Below are positions 17,448 to 39,813 of a stretch of 64,000 bases of DNA, in pieces (the first letter of the stretch is position 1; the number at the start of each line of letters is the position of its first letter). A program made the translations under genes and the position numbers. The notes beneath the pieces were generated by a model. The model did no database searches. It saw only the letters and a program-made list of their open reading frames with translations, and was not told the DNA's origin. The DNA is from a virus, in the IMG/VR virus record IMGVR_UViG_3300022074_000021, positions 1 through 64,000 of that record, one strand, 5' to 3'.

Positions 17448-19412
17448 TCAAATTTCTATAATACTGCCTATAGTATATGATGGTTGTACATCAGAACTTA
17501 TATCAGGCTCAACCAAATTAACTAATTTTTCTTGTACCTCATGTACCAGTTTAAAACATCTATTTAAAACTCCGTTAAGATTTTCTTCATTACCATGAAT
17601 ATAGAAATTTTCAAGTTCATTAGTTATAAACTTACTAAAATCAACATTATAATTATAATTATCAAGCTCTAATATATCATTATTAAAAGAACCGGTAAAT
17701 CTACCTATAATATTATTCTTAAGAAGTAACACATCCTCAACTAGTTTAAATATTTCTGTATTAACTATAGATTGCTGTATAAAACTATCACTATTCAACG
17801 AAAATCCTTGACTACCATAATTAGTGTAATTAGGATCCTTTAGAACTCGCTGATAAGAACTCATAATAGGTTCATCGAAAAAGTATAATCTACCGGTAGT
17901 TAGCATAATTGTCCTATCATAGCTACTAGTAGATTGAAAAATTGAAAAACTATTGATCCGTGAATCTAGAAGACCACTTACTTGCTCAGTCTCAATTGCT
18001 TCACCAACTTGTGTACCTAGATTCCAAATAAACTCTGCTTGTGAAAAATTAATATCATTAAAATTCCACCGATTATTTATAGATACTGGATTATTAGATA
18101 TTTCCACAGTTTCATCAGTAAAATCCAAAAGATAAAGTCGCTCAGTTCTGTACCTGCCAACAATTTTTGAAGGACGAGTTTTAAACTTTTTATATACTGT
18201 CTTATTAGTTGCAAAATACCAGTAATTACTATCTGTGCCTGAAAATGTAATATCTATTATTTCTTCTGTTTGAGCAAGTCTATCATCTAGAACTATCTCT
18301 TCTTTAAACCTAAAGTTTTCACCACTAAAACGGTATAAATATGGTATCCGAGATGTAATGTTATTTATAACTACATCTTTATAGGTTAAAATATATAGAG
18401 AATTAAAATCTGGGTCAAACCCCATTGCACCCAATGTCTCTGTATTAAAATTAATAGATGTAATACGAGTTATATAATTAAATTCCTCATCGAAAATTTT
18501 AACTACTTTGTTTCCAGAATCAAAAACCGCAACTGCATTATTAGTAACAGCTAATTTAGTGGGTCTAACAAATTTAGTCTGGCGTCTTGAGTCACCATAA
18601 CCACCTACTAACTCAATATAGTTACGTTTATTTCTAAGAGAACTATCATTATTAACATAACCAGCAATATCATAACGTAAAACAACATTATTACCAGTAT
18701 CAGAAAGATATAAATATTTTTTTGTAGAGGCAATTCCACCTAACTCTTTAAATGTTAGATTATTTTCATCTGTAGTTTCATATCCAGTAGTATCTTCTAT
18801 AACAGTTAAATCTGTGTTAGATCCAGTTAAGCATATAAGATCGGAAGAAGTACACGCAAATAACGAGAAATGATCTTCAAAATCTAAATTAGCTTGCACA
18901 GTTGCATCAACAATATAACCAAAGGCACTTAGATAATGATTATTTTCAAATCTTACATTTTCAACAAATTGAGGATTTTCAGTATTTGATGTATTAATCT
19001 GAAATGCAGATAATGTATTAGAAGAAAGAGAAGCATATCGTATAGATTCAGTATATGGTAACTTATTAGATGCTATAAAAAGTCTAGAATAAACATATGT
19101 ATTATTTTCACGTAAATTATCTAATTTAAGTTTAAATAAATCGTAATTAAAATTATCATTAAGACTGAAGGTACAGTTATCAACGGAGTTTGGTAAAGTA
19201 ATATCAGTATCACTAATAACTCGATCGGTAAAATTATTTGTAAAAAATAAATCTGTAGCAAAAGTGTTTTTAGATGTAAGTGTTTTATTGGTTATTACTT
19301 CTTTAGCAACATTATCTTTAGTTTCAACAAAACCATAAAAATCTGACCCGGTAAGAGTAAACATATTACCGGAAGTATAAACTTTTTTATATGAGGAATA
19401 ATCAATAATCAT
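17448..19412 (-). CDS. virion structural protein with NHL/beta-propeller repeats
   Basis: YLYLSDTGNNVV and F.RPTKLAV...VFDSGNKVVKIFD NHL-like repeats; baseplate/fibre context. Confidence 0.7.
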   Translation of the reverse strand: MIIDYSSYKKVYTSGNMFTLTGSDFYGFVETKDNVAKEVITNKTLTSKNTFATDLFFTNNFTDRVISDTDITLPNSVDNCTFSLNDNFNYDLFKLKLDNLRENNTYVYSRLFIASNKLPYTESIRYASLSSNTLSAFQINTSNTENPQFVENVRFENNHYLSAFGYIVDATVQANLDFEDHFSLFACTSSDLICLTGSNTDLTVIEDTTGYETTDENNLTFKELGGIASTKKYLYLSDTGNNVVLRYDIAGYVNNDSSLRNKRNYIELVGGYGDSRRQTKFVRPTKLAVTNNAVAVFDSGNKVVKIFDEEFNYITRITSINFNTETLGAMGFDPDFNSLYILTYKDVVINNITSRIPYLYRFSGENFRFKEEIVLDDRLAQTEEIIDITFSGTDSNYWYFATNKTVYKKFKTRPSKIVGRYRTERLYLLDFTDETVEISNNPVSINNRWNFNDINFSQAEFIWNLGTQVGEAIETEQVSGLLDSRINSFSIFQSTSSYDRTIMLTTGRLYFFDEPIMSSYQRVLKDPNYTNYGSQGFSLNSDSFIQQSIVNTEIFKLVEDVLLLKNNIIGRFTGSFNNDILELDNYNYNVDFSKFITNELENFYIHGNEENLNGVLNRCFKLVHEVQEKLVNLVEPDISSDVQPSYTIGSIIEI

Positions 19413-32131: not shown

Positions 32132-32150
32132 TTTGTGTATAAATATATGT

Positions 32151-33893
32151 ATGGTTAAATTTATTTCTCTATATTTAGCTTTTTCTATAAGCATATTTTC
32201 TGCTGAGATAAATCATAGTTTAAAAATTGATGAAATTATTTCGGCAGATTTAAAGTATAAAAAACTATTAATGCCTAAGAAATCATCAGATGATGTATTT
32301 GTTAGAAGGGCTTTTTTAGATATAGTTGGAAGAATACCAACATATGAAGAAAGTATCGGGTTTAAAAAGTATAATGATAGAGAGAAGTTAGTTGAATATC
32401 TTATAAACTCTCAGGGCTATAATGAGTCGATGTTCAATTTCTATGCTGATACTCTTAGATTGAAGAAAAAACTTAACGGTAACGTCTCCGGTGAGACTTA
32501 TATAACTTGGGTTAGAGAGCAAATTAAAAATAATACTCCTTACAATAAATTAGTTAAAGATATTTTAACAGCCCAAGGTACAATATATACTAATCCAGCC
32601 GTTGGATATTTTCTAAGAGATGAAGGTATGTTACTTGATAATGTATCAAATACCTTTCAAGCATTTGCCGGTATGGATGTCTCTTGTGCTCAATGCCATG
32701 ATCATCCATTTGATGATTGGTCACAGATGGAGTATTATGAAATGAGTGCTTTCTTCACCACTGTTAATACCAGAAGTGATAAAGGTATGCGTAAGGAATA
32801 TCAAAGACTTCGTAAGGAGGCAGAAGCAACAGATAAAGCCAAAGAAACAAAAGGAGCTCTTAATGAGATTGGTCAATTCTGGCAACAAGGAGGATATCGT
32901 AATAAAGTAGATAGTGATCTTAAGAAGGTACTCTCTCTACCACACGACTATAAGTATAAAGATGGTGACCCTGGTGAAGTAGTTAAGGCTGCTACACCGG
33001 TTGGTGATAGAGTTAAAGAAACTCGCAAGAGAAATAAATTACAGCCAAGCTTTGCACAATGGATGGTAAGTGAAGAACACCCTACATTTACTGCTAATAT
33101 TGTTAATAGACTTTGGCATAAAGCATTTGGCTTTGCCTTAATAGATAATCTTAACAATATAGCAGAATATGATGAGCTTCGTGAGAGTCGTAATGATAAG
33201 TTATTATTATATCTGGTTGATGTAATGAAGGAAGTTAATTATGATCTTAAGAAGTTTAACTCTATTTTATATAATACAAAGTTTTATGGGTGTGAAACAG
33301 ACCCAGAAGATAATTTTCAAGGTCCTATTATGAGACGTATGACCGCTGCTCAACTTTGGGATAGCCTTATTACTCTATATACGGGAGACATAGATAAATG
33401 GCAGCCAGAGAATAGAATAGAAAAGTTCCGTTATATGTTTCCGGAAGATCTAGCCACACTTAACTCTATACAAGCGTTAAAAGTATATAAAGATTTTAAA
33501 AGAATTGAGAAAGAATATTATAAAGGAGCCCCTAAAGCAGGTAAGGTCTTTGCAATTAGATCCTCTCATATCTTTGACGGTAGGGCTCGAAACTTTATGT
33601 TAGAGTTTGGAGGATCGGATAGAGAGCTAATTGAAAATGGTAATCAAGAAGCCAATATTATGCAAATTTTGACTCTTATGAACTCTGGTATGACCAAAGA
33701 GTTAATGTCAGTTAAGAGTAGACTTGGTCAGAAACTTTTAGATCTAAAAAGAAAAGAAGCAGTTAATTATGTCTTTCGTTCTTATATTGGTAGATCACCC
33801 TCAAAAGATGAGCAGCAAGCATTTAAAGGAGTTGGATTTTCTGATATTGTTTGGGTGCTTATTAACTCTCACGAATTCAAACTAATTATTTAA
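32151..33893 (+). CDS. DUF1549 + DUF1553 (PSCyt2/PSD1) planctomycete-type cytochrome-c-like exported protein
   Basis: DDVFVRRAFLDIVGRIPT, CAQCHDHPFD (CXXCH), F.ANIVNRLW...FG, RRMTAAQLWDSL and WVLINSHEF. Signal peptide from ATG 32151, which follows TATAAATA at 32138-32145. Confidence 0.9.
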   Translation: MVKFISLYLAFSISIFSAEINHSLKIDEIISADLKYKKLLMPKKSSDDVFVRRAFLDIVGRIPTYEESIGFKKYNDREKLVEYLINSQGYNESMFNFYADTLRLKKKLNGNVSGETYITWVREQIKNNTPYNKLVKDILTAQGTIYTNPAVGYFLRDEGMLLDNVSNTFQAFAGMDVSCAQCHDHPFDDWSQMEYYEMSAFFTTVNTRSDKGMRKEYQRLRKEAEATDKAKETKGALNEIGQFWQQGGYRNKVDSDLKKVLSLPHDYKYKDGDPGEVVKAATPVGDRVKETRKRNKLQPSFAQWMVSEEHPTFTANIVNRLWHKAFGFALIDNLNNIAEYDELRESRNDKLLLYLVDVMKEVNYDLKKFNSILYNTKFYGCETDPEDNFQGPIMRRMTAAQLWDSLITLYTGDIDKWQPENRIEKFRYMFPEDLATLNSIQALKVYKDFKRIEKEYYKGAPKAGKVFAIRSSHIFDGRARNFMLEFGGSDRELIENGNQEANIMQILTLMNSGMTKELMSVKSRLGQKLLDLKRKEAVNYVFRSYIGRSPSKDEQQAFKGVGFSDIVWVLINSHEFKLII

Positions 33894-33894
33894 T

Positions 33895-35094
33895 ATGGAA
33901 AGAAGAACATTTATACAAGCATTAGCAACCAGTACTTACGGAGTTAAAGCATATGCAAACGCACCGGTGCCCGAAAAAGTAAAAGCAAAAAACATTATCT
34001 ATATTTACCTTGATGGTGGTATGAGTCATATTGATACTTTTGATCCGAAAGATGATAAAGAGGTAATGGGTGACACGGAAAAAATTATTACACGAGGAGA
34101 TTTCCAGATAGGAAATAGACTTCCTAAATTAGCAGAAGTAATGAATAAAGCCGTTGTAATACGCTCAACAACGTCTAAGACAGGTGCTCATCAGCAAGCT
34201 CAATATCTCAGCAGAACTTCATATAAACAACTTGGTACTATTACTCACCCATCGTTAGGATCATGGGTGTCGCATATATCGGATAGGGATAAAGCTATTC
34301 CGGATTTTGTTCTTGTTAATGGTATAAGCACCCACCCGGGTTCGGGGTTTCTTCCAAAGAGACAATCACCCTTACCTATTATAGATCCTAAAGATGGTCT
34401 TAAGAACTCCAAGGTTGATGATAAGCTTCAAGAAAGAATGGCTTTACTTAAAGTTATTAATAAAAAGATTAACGCACCTATAGCTGATACTTATAACGAA
34501 TTCTATGATGATACAGTTCGGTTTCTTAAATCTAAAGACTTAGAGTTATTTGATATTAGTAAAGAGCCATCTGCTAAGAGAGAGCGTTATGGTACTTCTC
34601 GGTTAGGTCAAGGATTACTTCTTGCTAAAAGATTAGTTAAAGGAGATATTAAATTTATTGAAGTATCATCTGGTGGTTGGGATACCCATACAGATAACTT
34701 TACAAAGCTTGATGACAGAGTTAAAGAGCTTGATGATGGTGTAAGCGCTCTTGTTGAAGATTTAGAAAGTGAAGGCTTACTTGATTCTACTCTTATTGTT
34801 ATCGCCACAGAGTTTGGACGAACACCAAAGATTAATGTTAATACAGGTCGCGATCACTACCCTAAAGCATACTCAACTGTTTTAATAGGAGCTGGTATTA
34901 AGAGTGGTATGGCTTATGGCGAGACTGATGACACAGCTTCAAAGGTTATAAAAGATGCTGTAACGATATCTGACATTAATGCTACTGTCGCACATTTAGC
35001 CGGACTAGATGTTACTAAAGAATATTCATCTCCGTCTGGACGTCCATTTGAATTAGCTGATAAAGGAAAGGTAATTAAAGATGTGTTGGGGTAG
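33895..35094 (+). CDS. DUF1501 family protein with Tat signal
   Basis: MERRTFI twin-arginine motif; KNIIYIYLDGGMSHIDTFDPK, HPSLGSWVS, GGWDTH, TEFGRTPKIN...GRDHYP. Confidence 0.92.
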   Translation: MERRTFIQALATSTYGVKAYANAPVPEKVKAKNIIYIYLDGGMSHIDTFDPKDDKEVMGDTEKIITRGDFQIGNRLPKLAEVMNKAVVIRSTTSKTGAHQQAQYLSRTSYKQLGTITHPSLGSWVSHISDRDKAIPDFVLVNGISTHPGSGFLPKRQSPLPIIDPKDGLKNSKVDDKLQERMALLKVINKKINAPIADTYNEFYDDTVRFLKSKDLELFDISKEPSAKRERYGTSRLGQGLLLAKRLVKGDIKFIEVSSGGWDTHTDNFTKLDDRVKELDDGVSALVEDLESEGLLDSTLIVIATEFGRTPKINVNTGRDHYPKAYSTVLIGAGIKSGMAYGETDDTASKVIKDAVTISDINATVAHLAGLDVTKEYSSPSGRPFELADKGKVIKDVLG

Positions 35095-35134
35095 TCAATA
35101 CTTGCTTAAAGTGCTAAGAGCTATAAATAAAGGT

Positions 35135-36562
35135 ATGAGCACTAACCCTGAGGCAAGTTGGCCTAAGTTTAAATATTTAGAAGGTGAAATAAGCGGTAAC
35201 CTTACTAAAACCCGTACTATGGGAGTTGATGATACTGGTATTATTCATTCATTAGGTTATAAATCTGATATGCATATTAAAACTGATATTGCAGCAGGTA
35301 CAATAGAGAAGCAAGCAGAAGGATTAAAAGGTTTTATCGGTACTGTTGAAGCATCAGATGGTAATACTTATTACATGCCGGCCTATTCAAGCTCTATTGG
35401 TATTCTCAACAAAAAAACAGGTGAGATAACTACTGTCAAAAAATTTAATATGACTCCGCAGGTACGTTCAGGAGCAGAAGGTGCTAATGGTATTATTTAT
35501 ATGCCATCATATACAAGTACATTAAAAATATATACATATGATACAAAAACTGGGGAAGTAGATTCTTTTACACCCACAAAGAAAGGATCACACGGTCACA
35601 TATGGGGAGCAGCAGCTGATAAGAAAGGTGAAGTATATATGCCCCCAGCGCTTAACAATTACGTAGCTAAAATAGATAAGAATGGTGAATTTAAATATTT
35701 AGATGGTCCTAGAGTTACATCTGGAGTGTCTGGGTTTAATGTAAAATATGTTGGTGCTACCTATGTAGAGTCTGTCGACAAAGTATTTTGCTTACCTCGT
35801 AAAGGTAGTAAAATTTTAATTATAAATTGTGCAGATGATACATATGAAGAAATTGATTTACCGGCTGATTACCTCGCAGTTTCAAATGTTAACAGAAACT
35901 TTCATGGCTACTTAGCTCCTGATGGATGGCTGTATAGTGCTTTTTGGGCTGATACATACTGTTTTAGAATCAACCCAGCAACATATGAAATTCAATGGAA
36001 TAATTATGAAAAGGAATTTGAAGATAGTGGTATTCAGAACAGAGGTACAGGATATTCAACAGCTGCTATTACAATAGGGGATGATGTTTATCTTGGATTA
36101 GCAGGAACAACTAAAGCAGTTAAGCTTGAGTTTGAAAAGCAGTTAGTTATTTCTAATGAAGATGTAGCTCCATCACCTTCAACTACTGCTTGTGGCAGTT
36201 GTCCTTCTTCTTCTGCTACTATATGTGGTAGTTCTCCATCACCAACGCCAACAGCTACTGCATGCGGCAGTTGTCCTTCTTCTTCTGCTACTATATGTGG
36301 TAGTTGCCCATCGTCATCTGCTACTATATGTGGTAGTTGTCCTTCTTCTTCTGCTACTATATGTGGTAGTTGTCCTTCTTCTTCAGCTACTATATGTGGT
36401 AGTTGCCCATCGTCATCTGCTACTATATGTGGTAGTTGCCCATCATCTTCAGCTACTATATGTGGTAGTTGTCCTTCCTCTTCAGCTACTATATGTGGTA
36501 GTTGCCCATCATCTTCAGCTACTATATGTTGCAGCTATAGTTGTTGTAATACTTGTTGCTAA
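35135..36562 (+). CDS. beta-propeller protein with C-terminal Cys-rich CGSCPSSSATI repeats
   Basis: Blades ASDGNTYYMP, GANGIIYMP, ADKKGEVYMP, LAPDGWLYS; nine CGSC motifs and a CCSYSCCNTCC tail. Start moved to ATG 35135 (TATAAATA at 35122-35129). Confidence 0.8.
   Translation: MSTNPEASWPKFKYLEGEISGNLTKTRTMGVDDTGIIHSLGYKSDMHIKTDIAAGTIEKQAEGLKGFIGTVEASDGNTYYMPAYSSSIGILNKKTGEITTVKKFNMTPQVRSGAEGANGIIYMPSYTSTLKIYTYDTKTGEVDSFTPTKKGSHGHIWGAAADKKGEVYMPPALNNYVAKIDKNGEFKYLDGPRVTSGVSGFNVKYVGATYVESVDKVFCLPRKGSKILIINCADDTYEEIDLPADYLAVSNVNRNFHGYLAPDGWLYSAFWADTYCFRINPATYEIQWNNYEKEFEDSGIQNRGTGYSTAAITIGDDVYLGLAGTTKAVKLEFEKQLVISNEDVAPSPSTTACGSCPSSSATICGSSPSPTPTATACGSCPSSSATICGSCPSSSATICGSCPSSSATICGSCPSSSATICGSCPSSSATICGSCPSSSATICGSCPSSSATICGSCPSSSATICCSYSCCNTCC
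36263..36526 (+). repeat. 33-bp coding tandem repeat x8 (CGSCPSSSATI)
   Basis: 264 bp = 8 x 33 with synonymous variation; one extra copy starts at 36191. Confidence 0.95.
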
Positions 36563-36618: not shown

Positions 36619-37098
36619 TTACTTAAGAAGTGGTATGCCTTGAAGCTTAGGTTTTACACCATGGGCAGGACTAGCACCTCCGAAGACAACTTCCTCATCT
36701 TCTTCTTTGTGATCTTCATCATCCTTTTCATCCTCATCATCTGCCTCTTCTTCATCGGATTTTTTACCATGCAATTCATACAGAGTAATTTGAACATCTT
36801 CAGCTAGTACCGCTGCTAATTTACCGTTATGCTCTACATAATACTCTTCAATAATACCTTCACCGTTTAAGCTGTGATGGAGAATTTTCTTAACGCCCTC
36901 AAACTGAGGACCTTCAATATGAGATGCTCAGTCGTGTTCGATATTACCACCCTTGAAAGCAGCTTCTCCATTATCTTCAACCGGATTCGGAGCATCAGCT
37001 GATTCAACGACAACTTTCTCTGCCTGTTGATTCATGGACCCGTACGCTTCAGCAAGCATATCCATATCCTTTTTAAAATTATTATGTTGTTTAGCCAT
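36619..37098 (-). CDS. candidate selenoprotein (159 aa, in-frame UGA at codon 57); not in the ORF track
   Basis: TAAATA-N5-ATG at 37098; 56 codons; TGA at 36930-36928 in ...NIEHD-TGA-ASHIEG...; 102 more open codons to TAA at 36621-36619, then the terminator. A SECIS-like hairpin follows the TGA. Confidence 0.75.
36890..36917 (-). promoter_or_regulatory. bacterial SECIS-like stem-loop
   Basis: mRNA reads UGA-GCAUCUCAUA-UUGA-AG-GUCCUCA-GUU-UGAGGGC-G-UUAA: a 7-bp upper stem, a GUU apical loop 23 nt after UGA, and a 4-bp lower stem. Confidence 0.65.
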
Positions 37099-37128
37099 AT
37101 TATTATTTAGTCTAGATATATAGAAAAC

Positions 37129-37191: not shown

Positions 37192-37899
37192 TTAGAACGA
37201 GCGTGAAAGACCAATTCCACCAACTAGTTCAAATCCATCGTTAGTCCAAATACCCTCACGACCATTAAAAGTATATACACCTTTAACGAACGGTGAAATA
37301 GTAGTATCAAGAATTCGTACTGGGAAATCAGGCAACGTGACTACTGCTTCTACATGAGTAGCTTTAAGGTCCTCAAGAAGATATCCTAGCGTACCGGTTA
37401 CATATACCCCTTGATATACTTCACCAAAGTCTGCTCCGATTTCACCATATGAATCGTTATCACCATCAAGTGCTACAAACTGAGTAACAGAATAATTAAC
37501 AAAGCTCAGGCCAAGACCAAGCTCTGACTTAACATCACCAACTAGATCAGTACCTTCAGAATAGTAGTTAAAAACTGCATTACCGGTTACATCACCAATA
37601 ACTGGAAGACTTAACCCATGTGCAGCTCCTAAGCTAAGCTCAACTTCGTTCTGATCATCATTCTCACTCCATGCAAGATTCGCAAAGGACGGTACTCCGA
37701 GAAAGTCCAAATCAGTTGTTAAATCAAGACGGAAATCATCATCTCCTTGATTTTGACCACGCCAGATATCTTTTGTACTAAATGTGCCGATAGCACCAAA
37801 AGATAGTCCGGTCGCAACACTATTTGCTGAAGCGCTTCCTGCTGAGGCAATACCTACAGCAGCTATCATTGTCAATACGATTGTTTTCATCATTACCAC
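37192..37899 (-). CDS. outer-membrane beta-barrel protein (porin-like, host-derived)
   Basis: Signal peptide (MKTIVLTMIAAVGIASA), a KDIWRG motif, amphipathic beta-strands and a C-terminal ...GIGLSRSF with terminal Phe (BAM signal). Confidence 0.8.
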   Translation of the reverse strand: MVMMKTIVLTMIAAVGIASAGSASANSVATGLSFGAIGTFSTKDIWRGQNQGDDDFRLDLTTDLDFLGVPSFANLAWSENDDQNEVELSLGAAHGLSLPVIGDVTGNAVFNYYSEGTDLVGDVKSELGLGLSFVNYSVTQFVALDGDNDSYGEIGADFGEVYQGVYVTGTLGYLLEDLKATHVEAVVTLPDFPVRILDTTISPFVKGVYTFNGREGIWTNDGFELVGGIGLSRSF

Positions 37900-38210: not shown

Positions 38211-38660
38211 TTATTTAATATTTCCTCCACGATTTACACACTTCTGAACGTATCCTGATGCATAAGCTGAAGGCCATACATCATACTTACGCTTAGCTTT
38301 GGCTTGACATTTAGCACGAGTCTTAGATACTTTCTTTTCAGCGTCCTCCTCAGATTTCTTTTTACCACTCTTCATATTAGCACACCAGTGATACATCTTA
38401 CCTTTCTCACCACCATACTTCTTAGCCCTCTTACGAAGCTCAGTTACAGTGCCTTTGCAACTAGCACCTGCACGCTTAACACGACCCGGGCTGCTCTCTG
38501 CATCCTCTTCATTTTCCTTACTAGCTCTAAGTTTATCTCCTGCACTTTTAGCTGCTTTATAAGCTTTACTACCTTTACGAGCACTCTTGGCACCACGCTT
38601 TTTCTTAGCGTTAATATTGGCCCATAACCCTTCAGTATAAAATTCCTTAAATGTCTTCAT
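38211..38660 (-). CDS. basic internal-head-type protein with capsid-targeting-like N-terminus
   Basis: N-terminal MKTFKEFYTE resembles T4 internal-protein targeting sequences (IPI MKTFKEF, IPIII MKTYQEFIAE); C-terminal KRKYDVWPSAYASG module. Confidence 0.75.
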   Translation of the reverse strand: MKTFKEFYTEGLWANINAKKKRGAKSARKGSKAYKAAKSAGDKLRASKENEEDAESSPGRVKRAGASCKGTVTELRKRAKKYGGEKGKMYHWCANMKSGKKKSEEDAEKKVSKTRAKCQAKAKRKYDVWPSAYASGYVQKCVNRGGNIK

Positions 38661-38661
38661 C

Positions 38662-39813
38662 TTACCACTTCTTGCAACTCCAATAACCTGCAGAAAACTT
38701 ATCTTTTTTCTGGTCGCACTTATGACGTGCTCTGAATGACTTACGACGCTTAGGATTGCTCTTCTTAATCTTCATGTTTGGATCACCATAGCGAACAATT
38801 TTCTCCTTACCATCCTTACATGCCTTAACAACAAACTTCTTAGAGCCCCCAGACGTTCTACGAGGTGAGTTACACTTCATACGATCTTTGTCAACTCTCT
38901 CTGCATCTTCTTCAGCATCTTCACCATGTGTCTTTCTTGATCTACCTGGCTTATTAGGGCGTGTACGTCTATACCGACCTCCTGCACCATCTCTCTTAGC
39001 ATCTACATTACTAGGTTTCCAGTTATTTTGTGAATCATAAGACTTACCTTTTGGAGATTTTGAAGTACTTTCTTCACTCTCTTCTCCCATTGTTACATAT
39101 CGATTATATAGTTGATCGAATGTCTCTTCGGATTCTTCTCTACTAAGAGCTTCTAGTCTCTCATCTAAAGCATTAAGTTCAATTCTTAGTTCATCGATAT
39201 CAACATCCCTACCTTGCTCTGCTGCAGATACTTTAGAAGCAAAACGCATGAAGTGATCAGCAAGAGATTCTGACGCCTCAGCATCTTCACCACTATAAGC
39301 ATCTTTAACAAAGTCGATACCTTTACTCACATCACCACCGGTCATGAAATCGGCAAAAGCCAAAGCAGACTTACCGGCTAACTTAGCAGTACCCTTAATA
39401 GCTTTCTTAGCTACTTTCTTAGCTGTTTCACTATCCTCATCACGAAGACGTTTAATCATTCTGACATCGTCTTTATCAATATCCCCTTTATCATATGCAG
39501 CGTCTACTTTATCTTCTTCTTTTGAGTCGGGACCCATAGCTCTACCGGCTCGGTCAACTTTTTCTCCCCGCTCTGCTGCACCAAGTATAGCAGCTACACT
39601 TTTAGGTTTACCTTTTGGAAAAAGAGTGAATTCACCATCCTCATTAGGATTCACATAAGTGGGGTCGGAACGATACTTAGGCCCTCCACGACCGTCAGCA
39701 TCAGCATCTCCAGACTGAAGTCTACCTGCCTTATCATAATGCTTACCTTTCGGAGCTTCTTTAGCTTCCGTATAAATATCTTGTATGTCTTTAAAGAGCT
39801 CGTCAAACTTCAT
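38662..39813 (-). CDS. modular charged late protein (internal-head candidate)
   Basis: TAAATA-N5-ATG; MKFDELF...YTE leader; C-terminal KIVRYGDPNM...RRKSFRARHKC...YWSCKKW module. Confidence 0.75.
   Translation of the reverse strand: MKFDELFKDIQDIYTEAKEAPKGKHYDKAGRLQSGDADADGRGGPKYRSDPTYVNPNEDGEFTLFPKGKPKSVAAILGAAERGEKVDRAGRAMGPDSKEEDKVDAAYDKGDIDKDDVRMIKRLRDEDSETAKKVAKKAIKGTAKLAGKSALAFADFMTGGDVSKGIDFVKDAYSGEDAEASESLADHFMRFASKVSAAEQGRDVDIDELRIELNALDERLEALSREESEETFDQLYNRYVTMGEESEESTSKSPKGKSYDSQNNWKPSNVDAKRDGAGGRYRRTRPNKPGRSRKTHGEDAEEDAERVDKDRMKCNSPRRTSGGSKKFVVKACKDGKEKIVRYGDPNMKIKKSNPKRRKSFRARHKCDQKKDKFSAGYWSCKKW

What the first reader, a model, noticed from the sequence alone, without database searches (positions are those of the whole stretch)
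36619..37098. Hidden late gene with in-frame UGA plus SECIS-like hairpin: candidate phage-encoded selenoprotein
Seen: the apparent gap in the ORF track holds a complete minus-strand gene. It has a late-promoter core TAAATA (37109-37104) 5 nt before ATG 37098 and reads MAKQHNNFKKDMDMLAEAYGSMNQQAEKVVVESADAPNPVEDNGEAAFKGGNIEHD-[TGA 36930-36928]-ASHIEGPQFEGVKKILHHSLNGEGIIEEYYVEHNGKLAAVLAEDVQITLYELHGKK...acidic tail...GIPLLK-TAA, followed by a terminator. Right after the UGA the mRNA can fold GUCCUCA-GUU-UGAGGGC, with the loop 23 nt downstream and starting with GU, on a lower UUGA/UUAA stem. TGA is an ordinary stop elsewhere (e.g. 145, 498, 43587, 62505) and Trp is TGG, so this is not genome-wide recoding. 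Established: bacterial SECIS elements lie immediately 3' of the Sec UGA, with the apical loop about 16-37 nt away and a G near its start that SelB reads. Inference: from memory (unverified), T4-like marine phage proteins carry an HDC-A-x-H/K...H-x-L...G-x-(V/I)..Y.V...H domain with Cys at this position, which would make this a Cys-to-Sec orthologue. Its late promoter and L.EAY-type leader suggest a virion protein. It would rely on host SelA/SelB/tRNA-Sec and could tie full-length synthesis to selenium supply.
Basis: partly seen in the sequence, partly recalled or inferred. Interest (0 to 1): 0.95.

Follow-up and report, generated by a model that had tools for sequence, protein, structure and literature searches.

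The report
Phage gene encoding selenocysteine via SECIS
A small late gene of this uncultured marine T4-like phage runs through an internal UGA "stop" that every related phage keeps exactly where more distant relatives have cysteine, and an RNA hairpin of the bacterial selenocysteine-insertion type always follows, so it most likely encodes a selenoprotein, which I found reported for no virus of bacteria.

Summary
A minus-strand 159-codon gene (37098-36619) has a late-promoter-like TAAATA, its own terminators and one in-frame TGA (36930-36928).

- **TGA kept:** all 26 related viral loci first fetched have it, as do 32 family hits of a pattern scan and a further sub-family. No family member has TGG.
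- **Database artefact:** the "Trp" that protein databases show at this site is most likely TGA read with code 4 on short contigs.
- **Cys homologues:** distant homologues, common in T4-like cyanophages, have Cys there (53 TGT, 1 TGC). Profile-profile probability is 96.6%.
- **Selection:** both sides of the TGA are under purifying selection (dN/dS about 0.15).
- **Hairpin:** five different hairpin sequences, each with a G-U in the loop 22-28 nt from the UGA, follow the TGA. Synonymous variation vanishes there, and Cys forms mostly lack such hairpins.
- **Decoding:** TGA is an ordinary stop elsewhere. Neither this 76-kb record nor a 93%-complete relative carries tRNA-Sec, a suppressor tRNA or selA/B/D, so decoding must use the host, which is unknown.

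Best reading (about 0.85): a phage-encoded selenoprotein with a small beta-barrel H-x-U...H...H domain, possibly a packaged head protein. No selenium incorporation has been shown. The scan has reported similar candidate phage selenoproteins on other DNA; I did not test whether they are the same family.

The parts
37104..37109 (-). T4-type late-promoter-like core TAAATA, 5 nt before the ATG
   Evidence: Read. The same (A/T)TAAATA-N5-ATG arrangement stands before the gene in nearly all related loci. Function is inferred from the T4 late-promoter consensus TATAAATA (established knowledge).
36931..37098 (-). Codons 1-56: predicted N-terminal helix (residues 7-23) with an L-A-E site, then a low-confidence linker up to H55-D56
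   Evidence: dN/dS is 0.15 over the 13 codons before the TGA. Code-11 gene callers end N-terminal fragments here (P0051, P0076, P0080, P0082).
36928..36930 (-). In-frame UGA, proposed selenocysteine codon (residue 57)
   Evidence: TGA in 26/26 related loci, in 32 family hits of the pattern scan and in 7 further distinct sequences. There are 0 TGG and 0 TGY family hits in the same context. It aligns with Cys in distant homologues. It is unchanged in independent runs.
36892..36914 (-). SECIS-like hairpin: 7-bp stem GUCCUCA/UGAGGGC (36911-36895), loop GUU (36904-36902), extended by two outer pairs
   Evidence: Loop G-U lies at +27/+28 from the U of UGA. Zero synonymous variation in codons +7 to +13. 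One compensatory pair G-C/C-G between clades. Other subfamilies have different hairpin sequences at the same place.
36622..36927 (-). Codons 58-159: rest of the beta-barrel core, an acidic low-complexity stretch and the conserved C-terminal HG(V/A)(K/R)PKLxG(V/I)P motif
   Evidence: dN/dS is 0.14 over 40 codons. pLDDT is about 80 for residues 52-110 and below 50 for residues 111-143 and 153-159.
36769..36945 (-). Core domain (residues 52-110): five-stranded small beta-barrel with invariant H55, U57, A58, H75, G81 and near-invariant H60, L77, Y86, H110
   Evidence: AlphaFold2 model. Invariant columns. hhalign to the Cys-form family gives 96.6%. Fold matches are only generic KOW/SH3/Tudor barrels with Z up to 4.1.
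36619..36621 (-). TAA stop codon
36572..36601 (-). Intrinsic-terminator-like hairpin with an A-run and a T-run (bidirectional), shared with the convergent gene 35081-36562

Best explanation
The gene encodes a 159-residue selenoprotein. In the infected cell the late mRNA is translated to UGA-57. There the host's SelB with Sec-tRNA(Sec) binds the hairpin that starts about 16 nt downstream and inserts selenocysteine, giving the full-length protein. Termination by RF2 gives a 56-residue by-product. Sec sits at the start of the first strand of a small beta-barrel, in a conserved H-x-U-A-x-H ... H ... H constellation that in cyanophage relatives is H-x-C-A-x-H/K. This is most likely a metal-binding or redox-active site.

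Shown here: the conserved UGA, the Cys homologues, purifying selection on both sides, and a conserved hairpin of bacterial-SECIS geometry.

Inferred: decoding as Sec by host machinery, the chemistry of the site, and a role as a head-internal (packaged) protein.
For: 1. TGA is conserved in every relative. This covers 26/26 loci at 38-80% amino-acid identity plus three distant ones, 32 family hits with 26 distinct sequences, and a further sub-family. No TGG member was found.
2. There is a Sec/Cys pair. An HMM search over 1.8 billion representatives finds homologues with Cys at the site (E 3e-7 to 6e-4). In 54 domain copies from viral contigs the codon is 53 TGT and 1 TGC. hhalign gives 96.6%, E 5.5e-10, and aligns the site to Cys.
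3. dN/dS is 0.15 upstream and 0.14 downstream in the same frame.
4. A hairpin is always present:
   - window clade: GUCCUCA-GUU-UGAGGGC
   - second clade: GCUCCUC-CGUUU-GGGGAGU
   - L025/26: GCACC-GGUC-GGUGC
   - L027: CAUCCA-GGUC-UGGGUG
   - L210-220: CA(U/C)CCA-AGUU-UGGGUG
   All carry G-U in the loop at +22 to +28. This fits the published description of a 6-8 bp stem with a conserved loop G about 20 nt after the UGA (PMC4605307).
5. Codons +7 to +13 show no synonymous variation, while flanking codons vary freely. pS is 0.28 there against 0.55-0.62 elsewhere.
6. Cys forms mostly lack such a hairpin (mean -3.9 against -8.2 kcal/mol).
7. TGA is a normal stop elsewhere.
8. No tRNA at all was found in the 76-kb record. 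The 93%-complete relative has only tRNA-Leu, -Met and -Arg, so there is no suppressor tRNA.
Against: - No selenium incorporation has been measured.
- The host is unknown, so presence of selA/selB/selC/selD in it is untested. The phage records carry none.
- Within the two closest clades, covariation is statistically weak: one compensatory pair, and 91 of 500 shuffles do as well. The structural argument therefore rests on comparison between subfamilies, which are few independent lineages.
- Seven of 40 Cys forms also have a hairpin of -6 kcal/mol or better.
- Rfam's SECIS models gave no hit.
- The Sec form lacks the second Cys that many Cys forms have, so a simple CxxU-type redox pair is not evident.
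Confidence: 0.85

Rival explanations
1. Programmed UGA read-through with a standard amino acid (Trp, Cys or Arg from a near-cognate tRNA), as in the Q-beta A1 protein. The hairpin would act only as a read-through stimulator and would set the ratio of a 56-residue to a 159-residue product.
For: A conserved UGA with coding sequence on both sides fits this reading too. The host's Sec machinery is unverified. No Sec genes are in the phage.
Against: The homologous position is Cys in all distant relatives, which is the classical signature of Sec. No member ever uses TGG or TGY in the UGA clades. The hairpins have SelB-type geometry and loop G-U, including GGUC loops (PMC4605307). To my knowledge, structure-stimulated read-through is not an established bacterial mechanism.
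Confidence: 0.09
2. The UGA is a true stop. The locus makes a 56-residue peptide, and the downstream part is either translated separately or not at all.
For: Code-11 gene callers split the locus this way (P0014, P0026, P0051).
Against: Conservation is strongest right across the stop (H-D-U-A-S-H). No ATG, GTG or TTG follows the UGA until well into the conserved core domain, and no ribosome-binding site is evident from reading the sequence. The Cys homologues are continuous through the site. The downstream part is under purifying selection in the same frame.
Confidence: 0.04
3. A sequencing or assembly error, a fresh nonsense mutation (pseudogene), or genome-wide TGA reassignment (code 4 or 25).
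For: Database proteins show W at the site.
Against: Independent runs and dozens of divergent contigs have TGA. dN/dS is about 0.15. TGA ends 13-14 other genes, and no other convincing in-frame TGA exists in the record. Where DNA is available for the W-bearing sequences, it has TGA.
Confidence: 0.01

Closest known systems
Bacterial selenoprotein genes with an in-ORF SECIS read by SelB (prototype E. coli fdhF)
   Same: An in-frame UGA is followed at once by a 5-8 bp hairpin with a G(U) in the apical loop about 20 nt downstream (PMC4605307). Cys-containing homologues exist. Coding continues in frame. Two subfamilies even have a GGUC loop like fdhF (the fdhF sequence is recalled from memory).
   Different: The gene is carried by a virus of bacteria that has no tRNA-Sec or selA/B/D in the records examined. 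The protein family is not among the selenoprotein families I could check, and it is not GOS_A or GOS_B of PMC2398784. Incorporation is untested.
Poxvirus selenoproteins (molluscum contagiosum GPx1-like, fowlpox GPx4-like; review PMC8310308)
   Same: A virus-encoded selenoprotein that depends wholly on host Sec machinery. In fowlpox the SECIS also lies inside the coding region.
   Different: Those are captured cellular glutathione peroxidases with a eukaryotic SECIS. This one has a bacterial-type hairpin and belongs to a phage-specific domain family of unknown function.
Cyanophage 'possible cytitidyltransferase' or hypothetical proteins (e.g. P-HM2 PHM2_164; phrog_22379, phrog_11470, phrog_764)
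   Same: A homologous domain of about 60 residues, H-x-C-A-x-(H/K)-V ... H-(T/S)-L ... (D/E)G-x-V-x-(H/Y)-Y-(D/N)-V ... H-x-H. The BFVD fold search also hits these proteins.
   Different: They have Cys (TGT) rather than UGA, usually a second Cys (GxGxC), and mostly no hairpin. The domain is often repeated or fused to basic modules. The window protein itself does not reach these PHROG models at E 0.01 or better.
Q-beta A1 read-through protein
   Same: A phage UGA decoded at partial efficiency gives an extended protein alongside a short one.
   Different: Q-beta uses near-cognate tRNA-Trp without a SECIS, and its relatives show no Sec/Cys pair (from my own knowledge).
T4 internal head proteins (IPI-III) with a capsid-targeting leader
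   Same: It is a late gene that sits in a cassette with basic, internal-protein-like genes. The leader has an L-x-E site. A sister sub-family starts MKT(Y/F)NEF, like the T4 leader MKTYQEFIAE (the T4 sequence is from memory). One Cys-form relative has a gp67-like prohead N-terminus (phrog_1064, E 2.9e-5).
   Different: There is no sequence homology to the T4 internal proteins. Neither packaging nor cleavage has been shown.

Membership tests
Bacterial-type selenoprotein gene (SelB/SECIS-dependent) | In-frame UGA conserved among orthologues | tested here: met
   TGA in all relatives examined: 26 loci, 32 pattern hits and 7 further distinct sequences.
Bacterial-type selenoprotein gene (SelB/SECIS-dependent) | Homologues with Cys aligned to the UGA | tested here: met
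   (53 TGT, 1 TGC); hhalign 96.6%, site aligned to Cys.
Bacterial-type selenoprotein gene (SelB/SECIS-dependent) | Coding sequence under purifying selection downstream of the UGA, in the same frame | tested here: met
   dN/dS is 0.14 downstream and 0.15 upstream.
Bacterial-type selenoprotein gene (SelB/SECIS-dependent) | Stem-loop just 3' of the UGA with a conserved G in the apical loop about 16-37 nt away | tested here: met
   Five hairpin types have loop G-U at +22 to +28. There is a valley of synonymous variation over the hairpin. The geometry matches PMC4605307.
Bacterial-type selenoprotein gene (SelB/SECIS-dependent) | Base-pair covariation that supports the hairpin | tested here: inconclusive
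   Within the two close clades 85.7% of cells pair and there is one compensatory pair, but 91 of 500 shuffles do as well. Support comes instead from the different stem sequences between subfamilies.
Bacterial-type selenoprotein gene (SelB/SECIS-dependent) | tRNA-Sec, SelA, SelB and SelD available in the translating cell | not testable with these tools
   The host is unknown. The phage records, one of them 93% complete, have none.
Bacterial-type selenoprotein gene (SelB/SECIS-dependent) | Selenium in the protein | not testable with these tools
   Needs 75Se labelling or mass spectrometry.
Cyanophage H-x-C-A-x-H small-barrel domain family (phrog_22379/11470/764) | Significant profile match over the domain | tested here: met
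   The A2 profile hits Cys forms at E 3e-7 to 6e-4 against 1.8 billion proteins. hhalign E is 5.5e-10.
Cyanophage H-x-C-A-x-H small-barrel domain family (phrog_22379/11470/764) | Direct match of the window protein to the PHROG models | tested here: not met
   No PHROG at E 0.01 or better. It is therefore a distant branch rather than a member of those PHROGs as built.
Genome-wide TGA reassignment (codes 4 or 25) | Many in-frame TGAs, and TGA not used as a stop | tested here: not met
   TGA ends 13-14 ORFs. The only other same-frame junction (17448) is an ordinary stop followed by its own promoter and ATG.
T4-type internal head protein | N-terminal capsid-targeting leader ending in (L/I)-x-E, cleaved by the prohead protease, and packaged in the head | tested here: inconclusive
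   L-A-E at residues 15-17. A sister sub-family has MKT(Y/F)NEF leaders. The gene lies in a cassette with internal-protein-like genes. Packaging cannot be tested here.

The most novel reading that the evidence does not exclude
This is a selenocysteine-bearing head-internal protein of a widespread marine T4-like phage lineage. It would be packaged through its N-terminal leader and perhaps delivered into the next host. Its H-x-U ... H ... H site would carry out metal-dependent or redox chemistry. Full-length synthesis, and so virion composition and host range, would depend on the host's Sec machinery and selenium supply.
Probability: 0.3. Interest if true: 0.92.

Novelty: new variant of a known kind. 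Interest (0 to 1): 0.85.

Why it matters
Selenoproteins are known from cells and from two poxviruses (PMC8310308). I found no paper reporting one encoded by a bacteriophage.

A phage-specific selenoprotein family with its own bacterial-type SECIS would have several consequences:
- Phages would be shown to exploit host Sec machinery.
- Sec capability and the SECIS preference of SelB would become a new genomic marker for host prediction.
- Marine selenium availability would be linked to phage production.
- A new Sec/Cys-His small-barrel domain, common in cyanophages, would be exposed whose chemistry is unknown.

The finding also shows a systematic annotation artefact. Such genes are either split at the UGA or "rescued" with Trp by code-4 gene calling on short contigs, which hides them from selenoprotein surveys.

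Tried and rejected
- **Phage collection searches:** blastn and tblastn of the locus against 50,697 phage records found nothing.
- **Family libraries:** Pfam and PHROGs gave no match for the window protein.
- **Rfam:** a scan at E up to 10 gave only chance snoRNA-like hits and no SECIS family. A preprint (10.64898/2026.04.03.716425) notes that bacterial SECIS elements are poorly represented in Rfam.
- **Covariation:** the count within the two close clades was not better than shuffles.
- **Structure:** the PDB sequence search gave nothing. The fold search gave only generic small barrels, Z up to 4.1. Neither points to a function.
- **Host identification failed.** The clamp loader is under 41% identical to that of any cultured phage. 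The DUF1501 gene is only 26-40% identical (best local segment; mostly 27-33%) to PVC-group and other MAG genes. The porin-like neighbour resembles Pseudomonadota Gcw_chp/TorF-like porins only by language-model features. No psbA was found.
- **Phage Sec machinery:** searches for tRNA-Sec, selD, selB and selA were all negative.
- **A second candidate:** the in-frame TGA at 17448-17450 is an ordinary stop between two genes.
- **RNA evidence:** the RNA-library contig across the UGA (X20) cannot prove transcription, because DNA may be present in that library.
- **Failed search:** the alignment A6 was too diverse to search with.
- **GOS families:** the new GOS selenoprotein families GOS_A and GOS_B are not this family.

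Full report
**Observation.** The minus strand of 36619-37098 holds a complete transcription unit. A terminator-like hairpin of the upstream gene lies at 37163-37134. TAAATA at 37109-37104 stands five nt before ATG 37098. Then come 56 codons, TGA at 36930-36928, 102 further codons in the same frame and TAA at 36621-36619. A bidirectional terminator-like hairpin follows at 36601-36572. The hairpin GUCCUCA-GUU-UGAGGGC lies at 36911-36895. The 45 nt from the UGA fold at -12.2 kcal/mol, z = -2.4. The window is part of a 76-kb IMG/VR virus record, about 36% complete. It is a T4-like phage with a gp44-type clamp loader and a dUTPase, and it is under 41% identical in the clamp loader to any cultured phage.

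**The TGA is real and conserved.** A search with the read-through product found 33 proteins. Most are full length, so the two halves belong together. They show Trp at the site, which at first sight would refute selenocysteine. The DNA says otherwise.
- All 23 close viral-contig loci have TGA at this codon in frame, with conserved residues on both sides. So do three distant ones with changed neighbours (EHN-U-ATH and QHR-U-AKT).
- Database proteins with W share identical 65-residue cores with loci whose DNA has TGA.
- A further W-bearing sub-family also proved to be TGA throughout.
- All the W-bearing proteins of the first search come from contigs of about 2 kb or less, while longer contigs give split ORFs (P0014, P0026). 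The W is therefore best explained by code-4 gene calling.
- Pattern scans of all viral contigs in the context CAY GAY TGN GCN TCN CAY AT gave 32 family members with TGA (26 distinct sequences). They gave none with TGG (12 hits, all unrelated, mostly a terminase motif) and none with TGY.
- Contigs from independent marine runs cover the codon unchanged.

**Cysteine homologues.** A profile search over 1.8 billion representative proteins found 52 hits. Those covering the site have either W (that is, TGA) or a genuine Cys in H-x-C-A-(S/T)-H-V. The Cys form is common. It has 264 relatives in viral contigs, and 54 inspected domain copies carry 53 TGT and 1 TGC. It occurs in 269 cultured cyanophage records, where it is annotated "possible cytitidyltransferase" or hypothetical. 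Profile-profile comparison of the Sec and Cys families gives 96.6% probability, E 5.5e-10, with the TGA column on Cys. This is the classical Sec/Cys pair.

**Selection.** Across 13 distinct sequences dN/dS is 0.15 for the 13 codons before the TGA and 0.14 for 40 codons after the hairpin region, in the same frame. Synonymous divergence drops to 0.28 in the nine codons after the TGA, against 0.55-0.62 elsewhere. Per-codon counts show no synonymous variation at all in codons +7 to +13, even for codons such as CCG and GGG, while flanking codons vary freely. That indicates an RNA-level constraint lying over the hairpin.

**The hairpin.** Every Sec form has a hairpin of -3.6 to -9.8 kcal/mol (-5.3 or better in all but one, L216), and the hairpin's loop starts at +21 to +27 from the U of UGA (L220's best fold is a larger structure with an earlier loop). 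The sequence differs by subfamily:

| Subfamily | Hairpin |
|---|---|
| Window clade | GUCCUCA-GUU-UGAGGGC |
| Second clade | GCUCCUC-CGUUU-GGGGAGU |
| L025/26 | GCACC-GGUC-GGUGC |
| L027 | CAUCCA-GGUC-UGGGUG |
| L210-220 | CA(U/C)CCA-AGUU-UGGGUG |

All carry a G-U in the loop. This matches the general description of bacterial SECIS elements: a 6-8 bp stem with a conserved loop G about 20 nt after the UGA (PMC4605307). From memory, GGUC is also the fdhF loop. Cys forms mostly lack such hairpins (mean -3.9 against -8.2 kcal/mol, Mann-Whitney p about 1e-6, though the sequences are not independent).

One caveat applies. Within the two closest clades the formal covariation count is weak, with one compensatory G-C/C-G pair and 91 of 500 shuffles doing as well. 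Rfam has no matching model.

**Decoding machinery.** TGA ends 13-14 other ORFs of the record. The only other same-frame junction, at 17448, is an ordinary stop followed by a promoter and an ATG. The 76-kb record has no tRNA. A 197-kb relative, 93% complete, has only tRNA-Leu(UAA), -Met and -Arg(UCU) plus a tmRNA. No tRNA-Sec over threshold and no selD, selB or selA was found in five records. Decoding must therefore use the host.

The host is unknown. There is no psbA. The host-like genes give only weak hints: 26-40% identity (best local segment; mostly 27-33%) to PVC-group and other MAGs, and a Pseudomonadota-like porin. A preprint reports that 135 Pelagibacter genomes lack selC while Actinomarina has the full machinery (10.64898/2026.04.03.716425). 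If that holds, SAR11 would be an unlikely host.

**The protein.** AlphaFold2 with 42 sequences gives an N-terminal helix (residues 7-23), disordered linkers and a five-stranded small beta-barrel (residues 52-110, pLDDT about 80), with residue 57 at the start of strand 1. Fold matches are only generic KOW/SH3/Tudor barrels (Z up to 4.1). In BFVD the best matches are the cyanophage Cys-form proteins. H55, U57, A58, H75 and G81 are invariant, and H60 and H110 are nearly so. This suggests a metal or redox site, which is inference.

The gene always lies in a variable cassette between the baseplate genes and gp44/dUTPase, next to basic internal-protein-like genes. In P-HM2 the Cys domain is fused to modules matching the same PHROGs as the neighbour gene 38211-38660. 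One Cys form has a gp67-like prohead N-terminus. A sister Sec sub-family starts MKT(Y/F)NEF, like the T4 capsid-targeting leader. A head-internal role is therefore plausible but unproven.

**Rivals.** Read-through with a standard amino acid (about 0.09) fits the conserved UGA. It does not fit the Cys homologues, the absence of TGG or TGY, or the SelB-type hairpins. Two separate products (about 0.04) and error, pseudogene or recoding (about 0.01) are contradicted.

**Novelty.** Full-text searches found viral selenoproteins only in poxviruses (PMC8310308) and none in phages. The new GOS families GOS_A and GOS_B are different proteins. Earlier agents of this scan reported similar candidate phage selenoproteins on other genomes, some in marine T4-like phages with cyanophage Cys relatives. 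Sequence look-ups did not link them to this locus, so I cannot say whether they are the same family.

Noticed in passing
L200:15777-16193 (G001, the 197-kb relative that holds L025): ARAGORN calls a phage-encoded tmRNA gene with tag peptide AANKVVDFVLPQAEPQFALAA. The record otherwise has only three tRNAs.
   Followed up: no
window 38211-38660 and 38662-39813 (-); L159:3431-4747: The neighbouring basic genes share PHROGs (11180, 28131) with the C-terminal modules of cyanophage P-HM2 PHM2_164. That protein also carries the Cys-form domain, so the modules are separate genes here and fused there.
   Followed up: partly
window 36920-36930 (-): A mini-hairpin UGAG-NNN-CUCA that includes the UGA itself is kept in most subfamilies (the A/B clades, L025/26, L210-219). 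The Ser codon UCU is nearly fixed.
   Followed up: no
window 17448-17450 (-): Two long ORFs in the same frame are separated by a single TGA. This is an ordinary stop, because the next gene has its own ATAAATA and ATG 30-40 nt downstream.
   Followed up: yes
P0001-P0031 and P0034-P0085 (database proteins): Public protein sets show this family either with Trp at the Sec site (probably code-4 calling on short contigs) or split into fragments at the UGA. This artefact would hide such genes from selenoprotein surveys.
   Followed up: partly
window 32133-35094 (+); L008, L014: The DUF1549/DUF1553 plus DUF1501 gene pair is present in only some relatives. It is only 26-40% identical (best local segment; mostly 27-33%) to genes of Planctomycetota, Verrucomicrobiota and other MAGs, so it is not a recent host capture.
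   Followed up: partly
window 37192-37899 (-): A porin-like outer-membrane protein gene lies between its own terminators. Its family is mostly viral, and by language-model features it is nearest to the Gcw_chp/TorF-like porins of Pseudomonadota.
   Followed up: partly
L036-L047: The peptide HDWASH(I/M) is also a conserved motif near the C-terminus of proteins that look like terminase large subunits in unrelated phages. This explains all TGG pattern hits.
   Followed up: yes
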